A stretch of 11,137 nt of DNA from a virus (lineage: Duplodnaviria > Heunggongvirae > Uroviricota > Caudoviricetes), in IMG/VR virus record IMGVR_UViG_2526164688_000030; one strand, given 5' to 3'. Below, one piece after another: positions 1 through 9,498 of this stretch. Each line of letters begins with the position of its first letter. Position 1 is the first letter of the stretch. A program made the translations under genes and the position numbers. The notes below the pieces were generated by a model. That model had not been told where the DNA came from and ran no database searches. It saw only the letters and a list, made by a program, of their open reading frames with translations.

Positions 1-876
1 GGATGGGGAGTAAGCTTAGTCAGCCGTTGTCTCCGGGTGTCGCGTGCGCAGTTGCACGTCATTCTCAGACGAACCGATGACTGGATGGATGGCCGCCGCA
101 GTCGTCACACTGATGATACGGATGTGCTTCTCCGTATACACCATGTTATCGGAGAGCTGCCCACGTATGGTTATCGTCGGGTATGGGCGCTGCTTCGCAG
201 ACAGGCAGAACTTGATGGTATGCCTGCGATCAATGCCAAACGTGTTTACCGGATCATGCGCCAGAATGCGCTGTTGCTTGAGCGAAAACCTGCTGTACCG
301 CCATCGAAACGGGCACATACAGGCAGAGTGGCTGTGAAAGAAAGTAATCAGCGATGGTGCTCTGACGGGTTCGAGTTCCGCTGTGATAACGGAGAAAAAC
401 TGCGAGTCACGTTCGCGCTGGACTGCTGTGACCGTGAGGCACTGCACTGGGCGGTCACTACGGGCGGCTTCAACAGTGAAACAGTACAGGACGTCATGCT
501 GGGAGCGGTGGAACGCCGCTTCGGCAACGAGCTTCCGGCGTCTCCAGTAGAGTGGCTGACGGATAATGGTTCATGCTACCGGGCTAATGAAACACGGCAG
601 TTTGCCCGGATGTTGGGGCTTGAACCGAAGAGCACGGCGGTGCGGAGTCCGGAGAGTAACGGCATAGCAGAGAGCTTCGTGAAAACGATAAAGCGTGACT
701 ACATCAGTGTCATGCCCAAACCAGACGGGTTAACGGCAGCAAAGAACCTTGCAGAGGCGTTCGAGCATTATAACGAATGGCATCCGCATAGTGCACTGGG
801 TTATCGCTCGCCACGGGAATATCTACGGCAGCAAGCCAGTAATGGGTTAAGTGATAACAGGTGTCTGGAAATATAG
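1..876 (+). CDS. insD: IS2 transposase OrfB (InsD), 5'-truncated by the window edge; DDE/RNase H-fold integrase-type catalytic domain
   Basis: Frame 1 is open from base 1 ([20 protein letters not shown]...), continuing the 37..876 ORF upstream; stop TAG at 874-876. Sequence is characteristic of IS3-family OrfB. Confidence 0.88.
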
Positions 877-887
877 GGGCAAATCCA
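1..887 (+). mobile_element. IS2: IS2 insertion sequence, 3' portion (left end lies outside the window); right terminus ...TGGAAATATAGGGGCAAATCCA ends at 887
   Basis: Encoded protein matches recalled IS2 InsD over its whole visible length; terminal sequence at 866-887 matches the IS2 right inverted repeat as I recall it. Coding frame is open from base 1, so the element continues upstream of the window. Confidence 0.88.
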
Positions 888-959
888 GTTCGTAAAATTG
901 GTGGAATCCGTTTTCCTTTGCTGGCAGTCCGTGCTTATTATGCGTCCAGTATAGCTATT

Positions 960-2342
960 ATGACATCGCAAGGGACGTGGGTTAGTGCTTTAGAACGCCT
1001 AGAGCGTGCGCTTAGGCTGTGTTGTTTTTTTCGAAAGCATACTGATTTCAGGGATGAATTTGATCAGCTTTCGGCACATCTACTAGCAGAGTATGAACGT
1101 ACCAGAGAACAAGGCGATTCACCTTATCCGCTGCGACTCCTGCAACTCGATATCGACTGTAAAGTGAGTGAGCCATCTTTTATTGCCCAGGAACTCCTGT
1201 TTCTGACAAAAAACTATCTGGCTCAAAAATTATTTTCATTTGCCGTCGATGCCTGTAAAACCGCAATCCCGATTGCGAATAGGTGCTGTGACAGAGATAC
1301 ACAGTTTGAATTCTGGCGGCTTCTTGCCGATACACATCTGGAAGAGTCAAAATTCCAAGATGGCGGTATGATTTCGGCAGCCTGCATGCAGAATGCTATT
1401 GAAGCACTGGCTAATATTCCAGGAACCCGAATAGAACGTCTTGCGCTGTATGAAGAAATGCGTGATTACCAAATCGAATCCCGTCACCAGATGTCTATCC
1501 TTCAGTCTCCCCCTCAAGATATTAGTGAGATTGTCCATCAAGCCAAGAGTCGGGTAGTCGGAAGAGATTTGTTTGATATGGTTTTCAGACTTGCGATGCT
1601 GGTCTGTCGGCCAACCAGCATTGAGAGACTTAAGGCTCAAGCAATAGAACAAAAGGCCAACAGCATAGCTTGGATGTTTGGATCAACACATATTGATCAT
1701 GAGGGAATGACACTTGCTCGCATACCCGCAGGATTGGGGATTGATGATGCAAATGGGGCAGTTATTTGGCCCATAATGATGACGAGAATGCGTATCGACC
1801 ATGAGTTGGCAGTAGCTGGGCAAATTATTCCTGCTACAGATGAGATCACAATGAAATATCCAATCTCGGAGGCGTTTTTTCGCGATATGTTCATCAATCA
1901 TCCCTTCATCCCGTTTGGGCATGAAGAGTTTTTCATCAAGGGTATGGTTTGCGGTTTCAATGGAGATTTTATGACGGCATGCCACGTGTTGATTCCCCAG
2001 ATCGAAAATAGTCTGAGATATGTGGCTAAAATTAAAGGTGAGGAACCATCGCAGCTTCACGGGGACGGTTCGCAAGAGCGAAATGGACTCAAGGGATTAC
2101 TAGATAATCCACTGATTATTGAAGCTTTCGGCGTAGACATAATTGGCAATCTTCAGGCCTTACTGGTAGATAAAATCTATGGTGATTTACGAAATCAACT
2201 AGCTCACGGATATGTGCCTGCCGGTTACTACAATCAACCTCCCTGCATTTTTGCATGGTGGCTTGTATTGCACATTCTAATGAACCCTACGGCGAGATAC
2301 TGGCAAGCCACTTATGGCCAAGAGAGTGAGGCTCAGACTTAA
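960..2342 (+). CDS. Hypothetical cargo protein (~460 aa from ATG 960; ORF open from 858) with C-terminal R-x4-H motif (DLRNQLAHG) suggesting a HEPN-like RNase domain; candidate abortive-infection/defence protein
   Basis: Long uninterrupted ORF with stop at 2340-2342. Start is uncertain: the frame is open across the IS2 boundary (GTG 861 lies inside IS2), ATG 960 is the first ATG after IS2 but has no clear SD, TTG 918 is an alternative. The R-N-x-x-x-H motif near the C-terminus is read directly. Convergent with flanking phage genes; not a recognisable lambdoid function. Confidence 0.55.
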   Translation: MTSQGTWVSALERLERALRLCCFFRKHTDFRDEFDQLSAHLLAEYERTREQGDSPYPLRLLQLDIDCKVSEPSFIAQELLFLTKNYLAQKLFSFAVDACKTAIPIANRCCDRDTQFEFWRLLADTHLEESKFQDGGMISAACMQNAIEALANIPGTRIERLALYEEMRDYQIESRHQMSILQSPPQDISEIVHQAKSRVVGRDLFDMVFRLAMLVCRPTSIERLKAQAIEQKANSIAWMFGSTHIDHEGMTLARIPAGLGIDDANGAVIWPIMMTRMRIDHELAVAGQIIPATDEITMKYPISEAFFRDMFINHPFIPFGHEEFFIKGMVCGFNGDFMTACHVLIPQIENSLRYVAKIKGEEPSQLHGDGSQERNGLKGLLDNPLIIEAFGVDIIGNLQALLVDKIYGDLRNQLAHGYVPAGYYNQPPCIFAWWLVLHILMNPTARYWQATYGQESEAQT

Positions 2343-2439
2343 AGTGAATAAGTTTACGAAGTTGGCACTTCCGGATGCATGTCCATATGAGTTGAGGCGA
2401 TTTGGTTAATAAGGTTGAGTGCTGCTGAAATTATTCGAT

Positions 2440-2463
2440 GTCCGCTTTTGGCACAAAGCGGAC
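2440..2463. terminator. Perfect 9-bp inverted repeat GTCCGCTTT-(TGGCAC)-AAAGCGGAC between convergent genes; possible bidirectional terminator or protein-binding palindrome
   Basis: Arms 2440-2448 and 2455-2463 are exact reverse complements; located in the 218-bp gap between the + strand cargo gene and the - strand 133-aa gene. No clean U-tract follows on either strand. Confidence 0.3.
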
Positions 2464-2560
2464 AACCACGCCAGATCTACCCTGTGCCATGAAAAATGAG
2501 AATGTCAATTCACTCCTGAACTAATGCTTTTTAATCTAGTAACGTCTAAAATACCTAACA

Positions 2561-2962
2561 TTATCCCTGATAAAATGCCAGTATGCGCTGCATAACTTCA
2601 CTCATCCGGCACTCGCGACAGATTATGTTTAGGCGACTGTCGTAGCGACGTATTTCTCCATCAGGTAACGACCAGATAAGGTCCGGATCAACCACAGCTG
2701 TTTTCTTCACCTTTGCCCTCGAGAGTTTTTTGCGGGCGTTTTGCCAGTCCTTACGCGCCTGTTCAGACGGGAATAACCCGTAGCCGGAGTTGTATACATC
2801 GCCACTGGCTACCAGCTCTCTGGCAAGAACGCTCATCAGATATCTAGTCGCACCTGTTTTAGCTTCCAGTTGCCGTAACGTCTCACGACCGCTCTGGCGC
2901 ACGAGTTCCACCACCTGCCCTTTAATTTTTTCCCGCTCTTCTTGTGTAAAAACTTTTGCCAC
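2561..2962 (-). CDS. Hypothetical phage early-right protein (133 aa), function unknown
   Basis: GTG start at 2962 preceded by a strong SD (AAGGGGGA, short 3-nt spacer) on the minus strand; lies 40 nt downstream of the replication gene in the same orientation. Confidence 0.6.
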   Translation of the reverse strand: MAKVFTQEEREKIKGQVVELVRQSGRETLRQLEAKTGATRYLMSVLARELVASGDVYNSGYGLFPSEQARKDWQNARKKLSRAKVKKTAVVDPDLIWSLPDGEIRRYDSRLNIICRECRMSEVMQRILAFYQG

Positions 2963-5337: not shown

Positions 5338-5493
5338 ATGGATACTATCGATCTTGGCAACAGCGAATCTCTGGTATGTGGCGTGTTCCCCAACCAGGAC
5401 GGCACGTTCACCGCGATGACGTATACCAAAAGCAAAACGTTTAAAACCGAAAATGGTGCCCGTCGCTGGCTGGAAAGAAACTCAGGTGAGTGA
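5338..5493 (+). CDS. ydfA: YdfA/YdaF-like small protein (51 aa) of the dicB operon
   Basis: ATG 5338 with purine-rich SD (GAGGT); protein MDTIDLGNSESLVCGVFPNQDGTFTAMTYTKSKTFKTENGARRWLERNSGE matches recalled Qin YdfA; stop TGA at 5491-5493. Confidence 0.75.
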   Translation: MDTIDLGNSESLVCGVFPNQDGTFTAMTYTKSKTFKTENGARRWLERNSGE

Positions 5494-5494
5494 T

Positions 5495-6070
5495 ATGGAT
5501 TTCGACACAATCATGGAAAAGGCTTACGAAGAATACTTCGAAGGCCTTGCCGAAGGCGAAGAAGCTCTCAGCTTCAGTGAGTTTAAACAGGCACTCAGAA
5601 TAAGAATGTGCTCTCACAATGACGCGGAGCACAAATATGAGAAGCAAAATCAGACCGCAGAAAATTTTGTTCTGGAACCCGGAGAAACGCTTTTCAAAAT
5701 TCCCGTTACGTGCCCCATTTGCGGTTTTACATCAGAAGAACTTGACGACTCCTGTAACAATCAGGAAACAACCAAGTATGTCGAAGATGATACCGAGTGC
5801 GCACGAAGAACGATTATATCCACGAGTCCAAACTCCAGGGCCAATAAATCTCACTTTGAGAGGGTGATTAATCCACTCCCCCAAACCAATAAAAAAGATG
5901 CCGGAGGACAAAAAACCCAATGGAACAACGGGATATCTGTCAAAAAAAGACGTTCCATTAAAGACAAACAACGCAGCGCCAACAACTGTAAGCGCTTTAT
6001 ACCAGTAATCAATTTTCATGTTCTTAAGCGGATTTATTGGTGGTTGCGACATTGCTTAATGAATCCTTAA
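5495..6070 (+). CDS. ydfB: YdfB-like protein; N-terminus MDFDTIMEKAYEEYFEGLAEGEEALSFSEFKQAL; ORF stays open for 191 codons but the C-terminal extent is uncertain
   Basis: ATG 5495 is 1 nt after the ydfA stop with SD CAGGTGAG. N-terminal ~35 aa match recalled YdfB. The K/R/N-rich 3' half and rare codons suggest the distal part may be an antisense shadow of the minus-strand ORF 5732..6052. Confidence 0.45.
   Translation: MDFDTIMEKAYEEYFEGLAEGEEALSFSEFKQALRIRMCSHNDAEHKYEKQNQTAENFVLEPGETLFKIPVTCPICGFTSEELDDSCNNQETTKYVEDDTECARRTIISTSPNSRANKSHFERVINPLPQTNKKDAGGQKTQWNNGISVKKRRSIKDKQRSANNCKRFIPVINFHVLKRIYWWLRHCLMNP
5732..6052 (-). CDS. Candidate small membrane protein (106 aa, about three predicted TM segments) antisense to the 3' half of the ydfB-like ORF
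   Basis: ATG at 6052; translation has three hydrophobic stretches (ALTVVGAALFVF, VVPLGFLSSGIFFIGLG, ALGIIFDILGCFLIVTGVV). Only a weak SD (GGA 13 nt upstream). Cannot be resolved against the overlapping plus-strand ORF from sequence alone. Confidence 0.3.
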   Translation of the reverse strand: MSQPPINPLKNMKIDYWYKALTVVGAALFVFNGTSFFDRYPVVPLGFLSSGIFFIGLGEWINHPLKVRFIGPGVWTRGYNRSSCALGIIFDILGCFLIVTGVVKFF

Positions 6071-6329: not shown

Positions 6330-6387
6330 TTTCTGGTGACGTTTGGCGGTATCAGTTTTACTCCGTGACTGCTCTGCCGCCGTTTTT
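6330..6387 (+). ncRNA. dicF: DicF small regulatory RNA (Hfq-dependent sRNA processed from the dicB-operon transcript; ftsZ antisense regulator)
   Basis: TTTCTGGTGACGTTTGGCGGTATCAGTTTTACTCCGTGACTGCTCTGCCGCCGTTTTT matches recalled E. coli DicF almost base-for-base, with 3' GC-rich stem plus U-tract, in the expected position between ydfB/C-like and dicB. Confidence 0.8.
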
Positions 6388-6556: not shown

Positions 6557-6745
6557 ATGAAAACGTTATTACCAAACGTTAATACGTCTGAAGGTTGTTT
6601 TGAAATTGGTGTCACTATCAGTAACCCTGTATTTACTGAAGATGCCATTAACAAGAGAAAACAAGAACGGGAGCTATTAAATAAAATATGCATTGTTTCA
6701 ATGCTGGCTCGTTTACGTCTGATGCCAAAAGGATGTGCACAATGA
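6557..6745 (+). CDS. dicB: DicB cell-division inhibitor (62 aa; MinC-dependent in E. coli)
   Basis: ATG 6557 with SD GAGGA (7-nt spacer); protein MKTLLPNVNTSEGCFEIGVTISNPVFTEDAINKRKQERELLNKICIVSMLARLRLMPKGCAQ matches recalled Qin DicB; stop TGA at 6743-6745. Confidence 0.85.
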   Translation: MKTLLPNVNTSEGCFEIGVTISNPVFTEDAINKRKQERELLNKICIVSMLARLRLMPKGCAQ

Positions 6746-6933
6746 ATTCAGCATTTGCGCTTGTTCTGACAGTTTTTCTTGTTTCCGGAGTGCCAGTTGA
6801 TATTGCAGTCAGTGTTCACAGGACAATGCAGGAGTGTATGACTGCAGCAACCGAACAGAAAATTCCCGGTAACTGTTACCCGGTCGATAAAGTTATTAAC
6901 CAGGATAATATCGAAATCTCGGCAGGTCTTTAA
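6742..6933 (+). CDS. ydfD: YdfD-like small membrane protein (63 aa; reported lysis protein in E. coli)
   Basis: ATG 6742 overlaps the dicB stop (ATGA); N-terminal hydrophobic segment MNSAFALVLTVFLVSGVPV; matches recalled Qin YdfD. Confidence 0.75.
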   Translation: MNSAFALVLTVFLVSGVPVDIAVSVHRTMQECMTAATEQKIPGNCYPVDKVINQDNIEISAGL

Positions 6934-7026: not shown

Positions 7027-9498
7027 ATGAGTAAAGTCTTTATTTGCGCCGCTATTCCTGACGAACTGGCAACAAGGGAAGAAGGCGCTGTGGCTGTAGC
7101 CACAGCCATTGAAGCTGGCGACGAACGCCGTGCTCGAGCAAAATTTCACTGGCAATTCCTGGAACATTATCCGGCTGCTCAGGACTGCGCTTATAAATTT
7201 ATTGTCTGCGAGGATAAACCTGGCATACCCCGCCCTGCCCTCGATTCATGGGATGCTGAATATATGCAGGAAAACCGCTGGGATGAGGAGTCTGCTTCTT
7301 TTGTCCCGAATGAGACTGAATCCGATCCGATGAACGTCACTTTTGACAAGCTGGCCCCTGAAGTACAGAACGCTGTCATGGTTAAGTTCGACACATGTGA
7401 AAACATCACCGTTGATATGGTTATTAGCGCACAGGAATTGTTGCAGGAAGACATGGCAACATTCGACGGACATATCGTTGAAGCGTTGATGAAAATGCCA
7501 GAAGTTAACGCCATGTATCCGGAGCTTAAGTTGCACGCCATTGGGTGGGTTAAGCATAAATGTATTCCTGGTGCTAAATGGCCCGAAATTCAGGCAGAGA
7601 TGCGCATCTGGAAAAAACGTCGCGAAGGTGAACGCAAGGAAACCGGAAAATACACGTCTGTTGTTGATCTCGCACGCGCCAGAGCCAATCAACCGTACAC
7701 TGAAAATTCAACAGGAAAAATCAGCCCGGTCATTGCTGCCATTCATCGCGAATACAAGCAGACATGGAAAACACTGGATGACGAACTGGCCTACGCTCTC
7801 TGGCCTGGTGATGTGGATGCCGGAAACATTGACGGCAGCATCCATCGCTGGGCAAAAAAAGAAGTTATCGACAACGACCGCGAAGACTGGAAGCGTATCT
7901 CGGCATCAATGCGCAAACAGCCTGATGCCCTTCGCTACGACCGCCAGACTATTTTTGGCCTTGTCCGTGAGCGTCCGATCGACATTCACAAAGATCCCGT
8001 AGCACTGAACAAATATATCTGCGAATACCTGACGACAAAGGGCGTGTTTGAGAATGAAGAAACAGACCTGGGCACTGTTGATGTTCTCCAGTCATCAGAA
8101 ACACAAACTGATGCAGTGGAAACTGAGGTATCTGATATCCCAAAAAATGAAACCGCGCCGGAAGCTGAACCATCTGTAGAGCGTGAGGGGCCGTTCTATT
8201 TCCTCTTCGCAGATAAGGACGGAGAAAAATACGGTCGCGCAAACAAACTTTCTGGTCTGGATAAGGCACTGGCTGCTGGCGCCACTGAAATCACAAAAGA
8301 AGAATATTTTGCCCGAAAAAATGGCACATACACGGGCTTACCGCAAAATGTAGATACCGCTGAAGATTCAGAACAACCAGAGCCGATAAAAGTTACCGCT
8401 GACGAAGTAAACAAAATTATGCAGGCAGCCAATATCAGCCAGCCTGACGCCGATAAGTTGCTTGCTGCCTCTCGCGGAGAATTTGTTGCAGGGATTAGCG
8501 ACCCGAATGATCCGAAATGGGTTAAGGGGATCCAGACCCGCGATTCTGTAAACCAGAACCAGCATGAATCGGAACGGAACTACCAAAAAGCGGAACAAAA
8601 CAGCCCAAATGCGTTACAAAACGAGCCAGAAACGAAACAGCCTGAACCAGTGGCGCAACAGGAAGTGGAAAAAGTCTGCACCGCCTGCGGTCAGACCGGC
8701 GGCGGCAACTGCCCTGATTGTGGCGCGGTGATGGGCGACGCAACATACCAGGAAACATTCGATGAAGAGTATCAGGTTGAAGTTCAGGAAGATGATCCGG
8801 AGAAAATGGAAGGCGCTGAACATCCACACAAGGAGAACACTGGCGGCAATCAGCATCATGCCAGCGATAATGAAACTGGCGAGACGGCAGATCACTCAAT
8901 TAAGGTGAACGGTCATCAAGAAATCACATCCACCAGCAGGACGTGTGACCATCTAATGATCGACCTTGAAACCATGGGAAAAAATCCTGATGCCCCGATC
9001 ATCTCAATAGGTGCAATATTTTTCGATCCGCAAACCGGAGATATGGGACCGGAATTTAGTAAGACTATCGATCTGGAAACTGCTGGCGGAGTCATTGATC
9101 GGGACACCATTAAATGGTGGCTTAAGCAATCACGCGAAGCGCAATCTGCCATTATGACCGATGAAATCCCGTTAGATGATGCACTGTTACAATTGCGGGA
9201 ATTTATCGACGAAAACTCCGGTGAATTTTTTGTTCAGGTCTGGGGAAATGGAGCCAACTTCGACAACACGATTTTGCGCCGTTCATACGAACGGCAGGGG
9301 ATCCCCTGCCCGTGGCGTTACTACAACGATCGCGATGTACGCACAATCGTTGAGCTGGGGAAAGCCATAGACTTCGATGCCAGAACGGCTATTCCATTCG
9401 AAGGTGAGCGCCATAATGCACTTGATGACGCCCGTTACCAGGCAAAATACGTTTCAGTTATCTGGCAAAAACTGATCCCGAGTCAGGCTGATTCTTAA
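7027..9498 (+). CDS. ydfE: Full-length YdfE-like large early-left protein (823 aa): N-terminal domain of unknown function, central Cys4 zinc ribbon (CTACGQTGGGNCPDCG), C-terminal DnaQ-like DEDDh 3'-5' exonuclease domain
   Basis: ATG 7027 with SD GAGGT. The three DEDDh motifs are read directly: MIDLETMG (Exo I), WGNGANFDNTIL (Exo II), HNALDDARYQ (Exo III). The N-terminus matches the recalled K-12 YdfE fragment. Sits where lambdoid phages carry recombination/exonuclease genes, upstream of xis-int. Confidence 0.85.
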   Translation: MSKVFICAAIPDELATREEGAVAVATAIEAGDERRARAKFHWQFLEHYPAAQDCAYKFIVCEDKPGIPRPALDSWDAEYMQENRWDEESASFVPNETESDPMNVTFDKLAPEVQNAVMVKFDTCENITVDMVISAQELLQEDMATFDGHIVEALMKMPEVNAMYPELKLHAIGWVKHKCIPGAKWPEIQAEMRIWKKRREGERKETGKYTSVVDLARARANQPYTENSTGKISPVIAAIHREYKQTWKTLDDELAYALWPGDVDAGNIDGSIHRWAKKEVIDNDREDWKRISASMRKQPDALRYDRQTIFGLVRERPIDIHKDPVALNKYICEYLTTKGVFENEETDLGTVDVLQSSETQTDAVETEVSDIPKNETAPEAEPSVEREGPFYFLFADKDGEKYGRANKLSGLDKALAAGATEITKEEYFARKNGTYTGLPQNVDTAEDSEQPEPIKVTADEVNKIMQAANISQPDADKLLAASRGEFVAGISDPNDPKWVKGIQTRDSVNQNQHESERNYQKAEQNSPNALQNEPETKQPEPVAQQEVEKVCTACGQTGGGNCPDCGAVMGDATYQETFDEEYQVEVQEDDPEKMEGAEHPHKENTGGNQHHASDNETGETADHSIKVNGHQEITSTSRTCDHLMIDLETMGKNPDAPIISIGAIFFDPQTGDMGPEFSKTIDLETAGGVIDRDTIKWWLKQSREAQSAIMTDEIPLDDALLQLREFIDENSGEFFVQVWGNGANFDNTILRRSYERQGIPCPWRYYNDRDVRTIVELGKAIDFDARTAIPFEGERHNALDDARYQAKYVSVIWQKLIPSQADS

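What the first reader, a model, noticed from the sequence alone, without database searches (positions are those of the whole stretch)
888..2342. Orphan cargo gene with a C-terminal HEPN-like R-x4-H motif, wedged between IS2 and the prophage replication module
A ~460-493 codon ORF runs against the direction of the neighbouring phage replication genes and corresponds to no standard lambdoid function. Near its C-terminus is DKIYGDLRNQLAHGYV, an R-[NQ]-x3-H arrangement that is the catalytic signature of HEPN RNases (Abi proteins, toxins, Cas13/Csm6-type effectors). The gene is bounded by a mobile element on one side and a hairpin on the other, which is typical of a moron/defence cargo. I cannot assign a family from sequence alone, and no partner gene (antitoxin or sensor) is visible, though one could lie beyond the IS2.
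Basis: partly seen in the sequence, partly recalled or inferred. Interest (0 to 1): 0.78.

Follow-up and report, generated by a model that had tools for sequence, protein, structure and literature searches.

The report
IS2-split prophage HEPN defence-candidate gene

Summary
The ORF, the DKIYGDLRNQLAHGYV motif (window 2169-2216), the IS2 end (887) and the hairpin (2439-2464) are all real.

The ORF is not a whole gene. It is codons 112-595 of a 595-codon gene (WP_000340969.1), which is intact in E. coli ATCC 25922 and found in 152 of 5,426 complete E. coli genomes. An IS2-family element split it, with target duplication GTTCG. The predicted 117-aa 5' fragment product exists in the same assemblies.

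The protein has three parts: DUF7380, TPR-like repeats, and DUF4209.
- DUF4209 was assigned to the HEPN superfamily in 2013 (the C6orf70/ERMARD family).
- The whole protein matches PADLOC's untested defence candidate PDC-S39 (E 4e-83).

Homologues are single genes in P2 phage hotspots, lambdoid moron sites and defence islands.

Most likely the intact protein is a one-protein abortive-infection RNase, and the DEC9A copy is inactivated. No experimental test of the family was found. This is a catalogued family, so interest is modest.

The parts
1..887 (+). 3' 887 bp of an IS2-family (IS3 family) insertion sequence. The transposase orfB reading frame ends at 876 and the right inverted repeat ends ...GGGGCAAATCCA at 887. 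The window starts inside the IS because the source contig (E. coli DEC9A draft, AIGK01000032.1) breaks there.
   Evidence: The IS end is identical to copies in NCTC86 and STEC383, whose flanks diverge right after ...AAATCCA and show 5-bp target duplications.
861..887 (+). Nine IS-derived codons (GTG start inside the IS right end) fused in frame to the gene remnant. They give the annotated 493-aa 'hypothetical protein ECDEC9A_1991'.
   Evidence: No Shine-Dalgarno-like sequence lies upstream of GTG 861, TTG 918 or ATG 960. No sigma-70-like promoter was found on the + strand between 700 and 1200.
888..892 (+). GTTCG, the right copy of the 5-bp target-site duplication of the IS insertion.
   Evidence: I predicted the left half as residues 1-113 plus RLAP read from the IS left end TAGACTGGCCCCCTGA. 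That exact 117-aa protein exists (WP_000340971.1; MGD3051682.1, MGD3122275.1), and its accession numbers fall in the same number series as those of the 493-aa product, pointing to the same assemblies.
888..2342 (+). 3' fragment (codons 112-595 plus stop) of the DUF7380 / TPR-like / DUF4209(HEPN) gene, equal to PADLOC PDC-S39. The DNA is 100% identical to the intact ATCC 25922 allele.
888..1052 (+). Remnant of the N-terminal DUF7380 domain. Only profile positions 130-175 of 177 remain. The near-invariant A104-R105-x-x-D108-x-x-W111 motif is cut off.
   Evidence: (23.6 bits, below the gathering score of 27), against for the intact protein (119 bits).
909..1664 (+). Helical-repeat (TPR/SNAP-like) middle region, residues about 119-370 of the intact protein.
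1752..2339 (+). C-terminal domain modelled alone (residues 400-595). The HEPN helical bundle is roughly residues 455-594 (window 1917-2336). The Pfam DUF4209 hit covers window 2004-2273.
1992..2018 (+). IPQIENSLR, a conserved helix of the HEPN domain. Q482 is in 222/222 homologues, E484 in 220/222 and R488 in 221/222. These are probable active-site or structural partners of the R/H dyad.
2190..2207 (+). R546-N-Q-L-A-H551, the Rx4H HEPN signature, followed by G552.
   Evidence: R is in 222/222 homologues and H in 222/222. The residue after R is N in 200 and H in 19. G is in 220/222.
2439..2464 (.). Perfect 10-bp inverted repeat with a 6-nt loop and no T-run on either side. It sits where homology to other Qin/Rac-type prophages begins, so it marks the right border of the variable cargo slot.

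Best explanation
What it is (shown): Window 888-2342 is the 3' part (codons 112-595) of a 595-codon cargo gene of a Qin-type defective lambdoid prophage. The gene sits in the variable slot between hokD and the DUF977/replication module. In this strain (E. coli DEC9A) an IS2-family element inserted after codon 111/113 with a 5-bp duplication (GTTCG) and split the gene. The first 113 codons lie beyond the IS, outside the window. The intact protein has an N-terminal DUF7380 domain, a TPR-like helical-repeat region and a C-terminal HEPN domain (Pfam DUF4209, the C6orf70/ERMARD HEPN family) with an invariant R-N-x3-H-G motif. It is PADLOC's 'phage defence candidate' PDC-S39.

How it works (inferred): The intact protein acts alone as a sensor-plus-effector abortive-infection system. 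DUF7380 and the repeats hold the HEPN RNase off until a phage cue arrives. HEPN domains of two subunits then pair their Rx4H motifs into one active site and cut host and/or phage RNA (tRNA, rRNA or mRNA). This stops translation and phage growth.

The copy here (inferred): It is most likely an inactive pseudogene of recent origin. It has lost the conserved N-terminal motif and its native start and promoter, yet shows no base change from the intact allele.
For: Identity and truncation:
- PADLOC PDC-S39 matches at E 3.7e-83, but the alignment covers only profile positions 126-584 of 595.
- DUF4209 scores 34.4 bits against a gathering score of 22.3. Only the tail of DUF7380 is present.
- The intact 595-aa gene is in ATCC 25922, and window 888 equals base 334 of that gene.
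- The IS end and the 5-bp duplications of sister copies were read directly.
- The predicted 117-aa 5' fragment product was found exactly, in the same assemblies as the 493-aa product.

HEPN domain:
- Literature assigns DUF4209 to the HEPN superfamily (PMC3710099).
- R546, H551 and Q482 are invariant, and E484 and R488 nearly so, in 222 homologues with a median identity of 25%.

Cargo and defence context:
- The gene is in 152 of 5,426 complete E. coli genomes, all at >=99% identity.
- The hokD-DUF977 slot carries different cargo in other strains.
- Homologues are single genes in the P2 gpA-gpQ hotspot. There DUF4209 is the 13th most common cargo, with 193 occurrences (Rousset 2022 Table S5).
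- One homologue lies between Q and the holin gene of a lambdoid prophage.
- One lies in a tail-gene moron site of a P2-like prophage.
- Others lie next to CBASS genes, next to nSTAND3 and DUF4238, and among TIR, Ymh-HEPN, helicase and Shedu-like genes.
- No conserved neighbour gene was seen in any context.
- The family is large and uniform, about 600 aa long, with 7,942 cluster representatives.
Against: - No experiment on this family was found. Payne et al. list the PDC systems as untested. Literature searches for DUF4209, DUF7380, PDC-S39 and the protein accession found no functional study.
- Some homologues sit alone between housekeeping genes.
- RNase activity, dimerisation, the trigger and the target are all inferred.
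- Loss of function of the DEC9A copy is inferred from anatomy, not measured. Read-through from the IS into the in-frame GTG 861 ORF cannot be excluded.
Confidence: 0.62

Rival explanations
1. The family is not an anti-phage system. The HEPN protein instead serves the mobile element or the cell in another way. It could be an RNA-processing or regulatory factor like eukaryotic ERMARD is proposed to be, an addiction or stress toxin, or a non-catalytic ligand-binding HEPN.
For: The family is untested. Singleton insertions lie between housekeeping genes in V. cholerae and in one metagenomic genome. Non-nuclease HEPN proteins (MtlR, the KNTase C-terminal domain) are among the structural matches.
Against: The Rx4H dyad plus Q/E/R are invariant in 222 of 222 homologues, which argues for catalysis. 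Homologues recur in validated defence hotspots and defence islands. The gene is patchy in E. coli, present in 2.8% of genomes.
Confidence: 0.22
2. The truncated ORF in this window is still made, by read-through from the IS2 transposase gene with a start at GTG 861 or ATG 960. It would act as a deregulated or shortened HEPN protein, meaning the IS created a new functional variant rather than a pseudogene.
For: The ORF is in frame with a GTG inside the IS end and overlaps the transposase stop. The TPR-like region and the HEPN domain are complete. The same junction is found in three assemblies.
Against: No Shine-Dalgarno sequence or promoter-like site was found upstream. The DUF7380 domain is cut through and its near-invariant ARxxDxxW motif is lost. 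All 150 best matches in the library of cluster representatives span nearly the whole profile and are about 550-820 aa, so no natural N-terminally short form was seen among them. The sequence is identical to the intact allele, so persistence says nothing about function.
Confidence: 0.07
3. The toxin works with an unseen partner, making it a HEPN toxin-antitoxin pair or a two-gene system whose second gene lies beyond the IS2.
Against: In intact loci the upstream neighbour is hokD, 674 bp away on the other strand, and nothing lies between the stop codon and the DUF977 gene. Neighbours differ in every homologous context examined. What lies beyond the IS is the gene's own 5' end. PADLOC's only matches are to PDC-S39 models; that the 'S' label denotes a single-gene candidate is from my memory, not checked.
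Confidence: 0.05

Closest known systems
C6orf70/ERMARD-type HEPN family (Pfam PF13910, DUF4209; Anantharaman et al. 2013, PMC3710099)
   Same: The Pfam hit is above the gathering score. The motif is R-N-x3-H-G. The bacterial members are described as fused to TPR repeats, which matches this protein.
   Different: The eukaryotic members are ER-membrane proteins with transmembrane helices. The E. coli protein shows no convincing transmembrane segment; the best 19-residue hydropathy window is inside the HEPN bundle. No member of either branch has a demonstrated RNase activity that I could find.
PADLOC phage defence candidate PDC-S39 (Payne et al. 2024 bioRxiv, 10.1101/2024.01.29.577857)
   Same: It matches both PDC-S39 models (E 3.7e-83 and 1.5e-81). 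The intact allele and the P2-phage homologues match end to end.
   Different: The window copy covers only profile positions 126-584 and is IS-split. PDC systems are predictions from gene embedding in BREX, DISARM and type I RM loci and are untested. The E. coli copy is in a prophage, not embedded in such a system.
Experimentally supported single-protein or simple HEPN defence and toxin systems: HEC-08 (DUF3644 HEPN), AbiV, RnlA/LsoA, HepT toxins, Csm6
   Same: They share the HEPN fold and the Rx4-6H dyad. Several are structural matches. HEC-08 defence is lost on mutating the motif histidine.
   Different: There is no sequence-level relation: no Pfam, PADLOC or NCBIfam hit to those families. 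The N-terminal architecture is different (DUF7380 plus TPR-like repeats). There is no antitoxin, CARF domain or cas neighbourhood.
Prophage and satellite defence hotspots (P2 old/tin locus, Rousset et al. 2022, PMC9122126)
   Same: DUF4209 proteins are frequent single-gene cargo of the P2 gpA-gpQ hotspot. The Qin-type hokD-DUF977 slot behaves in the same way, with swapped cargo between conserved flanks.
   Different: The hokD-DUF977 slot was not found described as a defence hotspot in the papers read. Its alternative cargos have no PADLOC hits. DUF4209 does not appear in the table of systems tested in that study.

Membership tests
HEPN superfamily | All-alpha up-down helical bundle of the HEPN type | tested here: met
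HEPN superfamily | Conserved Rx4-6H motif, usually with a polar residue after R | tested here: met
   RNQLAH is at window 2190-2207. R and H are in 222 of 222 homologues. The residue after R is N in 200 and H in 19.
HEPN superfamily | Metal-independent RNase activity from a composite active site of two HEPN domains | not testable with these tools
   No multimer modelling or biochemistry was available. There is one HEPN domain per chain, so a homodimer would be needed (inference).
Pfam DUF4209 (C6orf70/ERMARD HEPN family) | Score above Pfam's gathering threshold | tested here: met
   34.4 bits against 22.3. All 39 aligned homologues hit the model.
Pfam DUF7380 | Score above the gathering threshold over the whole domain | tested here: not met
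   The window ORF scores 23.6 bits against 27, over profile positions 130-175 of 177 only. The intact allele scores 119 bits over positions 4-175. The domain is cut by the IS.
PADLOC PDC-S39 | Match to the PDC-S39 protein models | tested here: met
   E 3.7e-83 and 1.5e-81.
PADLOC PDC-S39 | Complete, uninterrupted gene | tested here: not met
   Only profile positions 126-584 of 595 are covered, and the IS2 junction is at 887/888.
PADLOC PDC-S39 | Anti-phage activity | not testable with these tools
   Its authors describe the 145 candidates as untested. No later study was found.
HEPN-MNT (HepT) toxin-antitoxin | Adjacent MNT nucleotidyltransferase antitoxin gene and a small (about 130 aa) toxin | tested here: not met
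   There is no adjacent partner ORF in the window or in intact loci, and the protein is 595 aa. The HepT-like Pfam model is hit by only one homologue, at E 0.059.
CRISPR-associated HEPN RNases (Csm6/Csx1/Cas13) | CARF or Cas13 architecture, or a cas gene neighbourhood | tested here: not met
   No such Pfam hits and no cas genes in any context. The similarity is at the fold level only.
Named lactococcal-type Abi HEPN families (Abi_2/AbiD-F, AbiU2, AbiV, AbiJ) | Sequence-profile match to the family | tested here: not met
   No Pfam or PADLOC hit other than DUF4209, DUF7380 and PDC-S39.

The most novel reading that the evidence does not exclude
The intact DUF7380 / TPR-like / HEPN protein is a real, so far unvalidated class of one-protein anti-phage RNase, and the bacterial relative of eukaryotic ERMARD. 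It would be carried as swappable cargo by P2-like and lambdoid prophages. Its repeated knock-outs by different insertion sequences in E. coli (an IS2 variant, canonical IS2 just upstream, an IS3-family element, ISEc23) would then reflect a fitness cost of carrying a self-targeting RNase.
Probability: 0.45. Interest if true: 0.5.

Novelty: already known. Interest (0 to 1): 0.27.

Why it matters
- **The call is sound but not new.** A tool-free reading of an Rx4H motif did point to a real HEPN domain. But the HEPN assignment dates from 2013, the defence-candidate label from 2024, and RefSeq already annotates the gene.
- **What is still missing is an experiment.** An intact copy identical in DNA over the overlapping 1,455 bp sits in E. 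coli ATCC 25922, a standard laboratory strain, so PDC-S39 is easy to test.
- **What a positive test would give.** It would add a common one-protein RNase defence, with about 8,000 sequence clusters, and a functional handle on the eukaryotic ERMARD family.
- **A practical lesson for annotation.** An ORF that abuts an IS end at the edge of a draft contig should be checked against profile coordinates before it is called a complete gene.

Tried and rejected
- **Sequence searches against the PDB.** A single sequence and a profile found no relative with a solved structure.
- **NCBIfam.** No family matched.
- **Promoter and terminator scan of 700-2700.** Nothing was above the shuffled expectation and nothing lay upstream of the ORF.
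- **Search for the exact IS-gene junction in 5,426 complete E. coli genomes.** None holds it. The apparent extension of IS hits past position 887 in NCTC86 and STEC383 was only chance similarity of flanks.
- **IS2-adjacent deletion from a DEC9B-like ancestor (IS2 47 bp upstream).** Rejected. The two IS copies differ by about 3% at their ends, and the 5' fragment with the expected target duplication exists.
- **Supplement searches.** A search for PDC-S39 or DUF4209 in the Payne 2024 supplements found nothing. The DefensePredictor preprint has no supplements held.
- **Transmembrane anchor (noted for the P2 homologue in Rousset's table).** No convincing hydrophobic segment outside the HEPN core.
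- **Alternative cargos of the same slot.** They gave no PADLOC hits.

Full report
**1. What is in the sequence**

ORF listing shows a + strand ORF from GTG 861 to the stop at 2340-2342 (493 aa). It is convergent with a run of minus-strand genes for DUF977, an O-like replication protein, YdaT and Cro. The motif DKIYGDLRNQLAHGYV is at window 2169-2216, with R at 2190 and H at 2205.

The first 887 bases are the 3' part of an IS2-family element, which ends ...GGGGCAAATCCA at 887. Two other genomes, NCTC86 and STEC383, carry the same IS variant. It is identical up to that base, followed by unrelated flanks and 5-bp target duplications.

A perfect 10-bp hairpin lies at 2439-2464. Its free energy is about -15 kcal/mol and its z-score about -2.8. 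Neither strand has a T-run after it.

**2. The ORF is a fragment**

- PADLOC's PDC-S39 models match at E 3.7e-83, but only from profile position 126 onward, out of 595.
- Pfam finds DUF4209 above its threshold, but only the last 46 positions of the 177-position DUF7380 model.
- E. coli ATCC 25922 has the same DNA, 100% identical over window 888-2600, as part of an intact 1,788-bp gene (WP_000340969.1, 595 aa). Window 888 is base 334 of that gene.
- The IS therefore sits after codon 111/113. The first nine codons of the 493-aa ORF come from the IS.

I tested whether this is a simple insertion. With a 5-bp duplication (GTTCG) and the IS left end TAGACTGGCCCCCTGA, the left half should encode residues 1-113 followed by RLAP and a stop. 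That exact 117-aa protein is on record (WP_000340971.1). Its accessions fall in the same number series as those of the 493-aa product: MGD3051682 with MGD3051844, and MGD3122275 with MGD3122446. Each product is on three contigs. This points to the same assemblies holding both halves.

The window is the first 11 kb of a draft contig of E. coli DEC9A (AIGK01000032.1, ECDEC9A_1991) that begins inside the IS. That is why the 5' half is not visible.

**3. What the protein is**

The AF2 model of the intact protein is confident (pLDDT 89) and almost all helical. The whole model matches only TPR and helical-repeat proteins.

- YutE, TTHA0636 and HI0074
- Roquin, MtlR, Las1, RnlA, LsoA and AbiV further down

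I aligned 222 homologues with a median identity of 25% to the E. coli protein.
- R546, H551, Q482 and G467 are invariant.
- E484 is in 220 of 222 and R488 in 221 of 222.
- The residue after R is N or H in 219.

Rx4-6H patterns as such are not significant here: four are found and 2.7 are expected. Conservation and fold carry the argument.

Anantharaman et al. 2013 already placed DUF4209 in the HEPN superfamily as the C6orf70 (ERMARD) family. They predicted it to be active, with bacterial members fused to TPR repeats and found near restriction-modification genes.

The N-terminal domain has its own near-invariant motif (A104, R105, D108, W111). This motif lies just upstream of the IS breakpoint and is therefore missing from the window ORF.

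**4. Context**

The gene is in 152 of 5,426 complete E. coli genomes, always at >=99% identity and always chromosomal. In ATCC 25922 it lies in a Qin-type prophage carrying cspI, cspB, ydfT, ydfU, rem, hokD, this gene, then DUF977, an O-like gene, ydaT, cro, a repressor, ydfA, dicB, ydfD, an exonuclease, xis and int next to rspB.

Other prophages share the DUF977 module, with homology beginning at the hairpin (window about 2438-2446). They carry different cargo between hokD and DUF977:
- a 484-aa unknown protein,
- a pair of unknown proteins,
- or QueH.

None of these alternates has a PADLOC hit.

More distant PDC-S39 homologues are single genes in the following places:
- the P2 gpA-gpQ hotspot, where Rousset et al. 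list DUF4209 as the 13th most frequent cargo with 193 occurrences; DUF4209 does not appear in their table of tested systems;
- between Q and the holin gene of an Enterobacter prophage;
- a tail-gene moron site of a P2-like prophage;
- flanked by IS elements near CBASS genes in Oleispira;
- next to nSTAND3 and DUF4238 genes;
- in an island with TIR, Ymh-HEPN, a DUF4011 helicase and a Shedu-like gene.

Two contexts are plain insertions between housekeeping genes. No neighbour is conserved across contexts.

The family has 7,942 cluster representatives at E <= 0.001. The 150 best matches all span nearly the whole profile at about 550-820 aa.

**5. Mechanism**

Shown:
- a domain order of DUF7380, helical repeats, then HEPN;
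- an intact and invariant HEPN dyad;
- single-gene, mobile, patchy distribution.

Inferred: the intact protein is a self-contained sensor and effector. The N-terminal part senses infection or holds the enzyme off. HEPN domains of two chains then pair to form an RNase site, and RNA cleavage aborts the infection. I give the defence-RNase reading about 0.6.

The DEC9A copy is probably inactive. The N-terminal domain is cut, its conserved motif is lost, and no ribosome-binding site or promoter-like sequence precedes GTG 861, TTG 918 or ATG 960. The remnant has no base change from the intact allele, so the insertion is recent.

**6. Other disruptions**

- DEC9B, from the same strain collection (names DEC9A and DEC9B), has a canonical IS2 47 bp upstream of an intact gene, with duplication CATTT. 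Its ends differ by about 3% from the IS in the window, so this is a separate event.
- JNEC-KY174 has an IS3-family element at about codon 427.
- MEI1-1023 has ISEc23 at base 1589.
- Truncated alleles of 335, 369 and 521 aa are on record.
- Most copies are intact (147 of 152 cover at least 80% of the gene).

This may reflect a cost of the gene, or simply decay of a defective prophage. I cannot tell which.

**7. Comparison and verdict**

The thing is a member of catalogued families: Pfam DUF4209 and DUF7380, PADLOC PDC-S39, and PHROGs 5183 and 31613 of unknown function. It is not a HEPN-MNT pair, not CRISPR-associated, and not one of the named Abi families; the membership table gives the tests.

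No functional study of the family was found in the searchable literature.

The claims of an 'orphan' gene, a gene 'bounded by IS2' and a 'partner beyond the IS2' do not.

Novelty is low, because the HEPN assignment and the defence-candidate status are published and this copy is broken. What is left is a straightforward experiment on the intact ATCC 25922 allele.

Noticed in passing
window 2343-2560 (hairpin 2439-2464); loci L001, L022, L023, L024: The stretch between hokD and the DUF977 gene is a swap site for cargo in Qin/Rac-type prophages. Homology between prophages starts at the hairpin. Other strains carry a 484-aa unknown protein (WP_032341362.1), two unknown proteins (333 and 320 aa, one with a weak sub-threshold HEPN_RES_NTD1 hit), or QueH. 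None has a PADLOC hit, and all are unexplored candidates.
   Followed up: partly
L002 4290-5621 (DEC9B); L015 2784-3997 (JNEC-KY174); L016 4120-6536 (MEI1-1023): At least four independent insertion-sequence events hit this gene or its upstream region in different E. coli strains: the IS2 variant in the window, canonical IS2 47 bp upstream, an IS3-family element at about codon 427, and ISEc23 at base 1589. Truncated alleles of 335, 369 and 521 aa also exist. It is unclear whether this is selection against the gene or ordinary prophage decay.
   Followed up: partly
window 1-887: The window is the very start of a draft contig (E. coli DEC9A, AIGK01000032.1) that breaks inside the IS. The left edge is an assembly boundary, not a biological one. 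The IS is a variant about 3% different from canonical IS2, and RefSeq labels it only 'IS3 family transposase'.
   Followed up: yes
window 6331-6382: The DicF antisense sRNA scores 72.5 bits in Rfam, upstream of dicB (6557-6745) and ydfD (6742-6933). This confirms the Qin-type cell-division-inhibitor module.
   Followed up: yes
window 7027-9498: An 823-aa 'exonuclease' ORF has YdfE_N and YdfE_C domains, a C-terminal Rv2179c-like 3'-5' exonuclease domain, a long acidic, low-complexity middle and a CxxC...CxxC stretch (CTACGQTGGGNCPDCG). It was not examined further.
   Followed up: no
window 5453-6070 (+) and 5732-6052 (-): An ORF of 191-205 aa with a CPICG motif is called in the DEC9A contig but not annotated in ATCC 25922 for the same DNA. 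It overlaps a hydrophobic 106-aa ORF on the other strand. It is unclear which, if either, is real.
   Followed up: no
protein P0062 (729 aa, Logan assembly): One PDC-S39 homologue carries an extra N-terminal domain of about 115 aa with weak hits to nucleoside 2-deoxyribosyltransferase (E 0.0016) and TIR_2 (E 0.034). This is a possible second effector fused to the family.
   Followed up: no
L005-L007 8958-9440 (Vibrio cholerae): In V. cholerae the homologue forms a two-gene islet between tauE and carB with a 160-aa ORF that has no Pfam hit. It was not seen next to other homologues.
   Followed up: no
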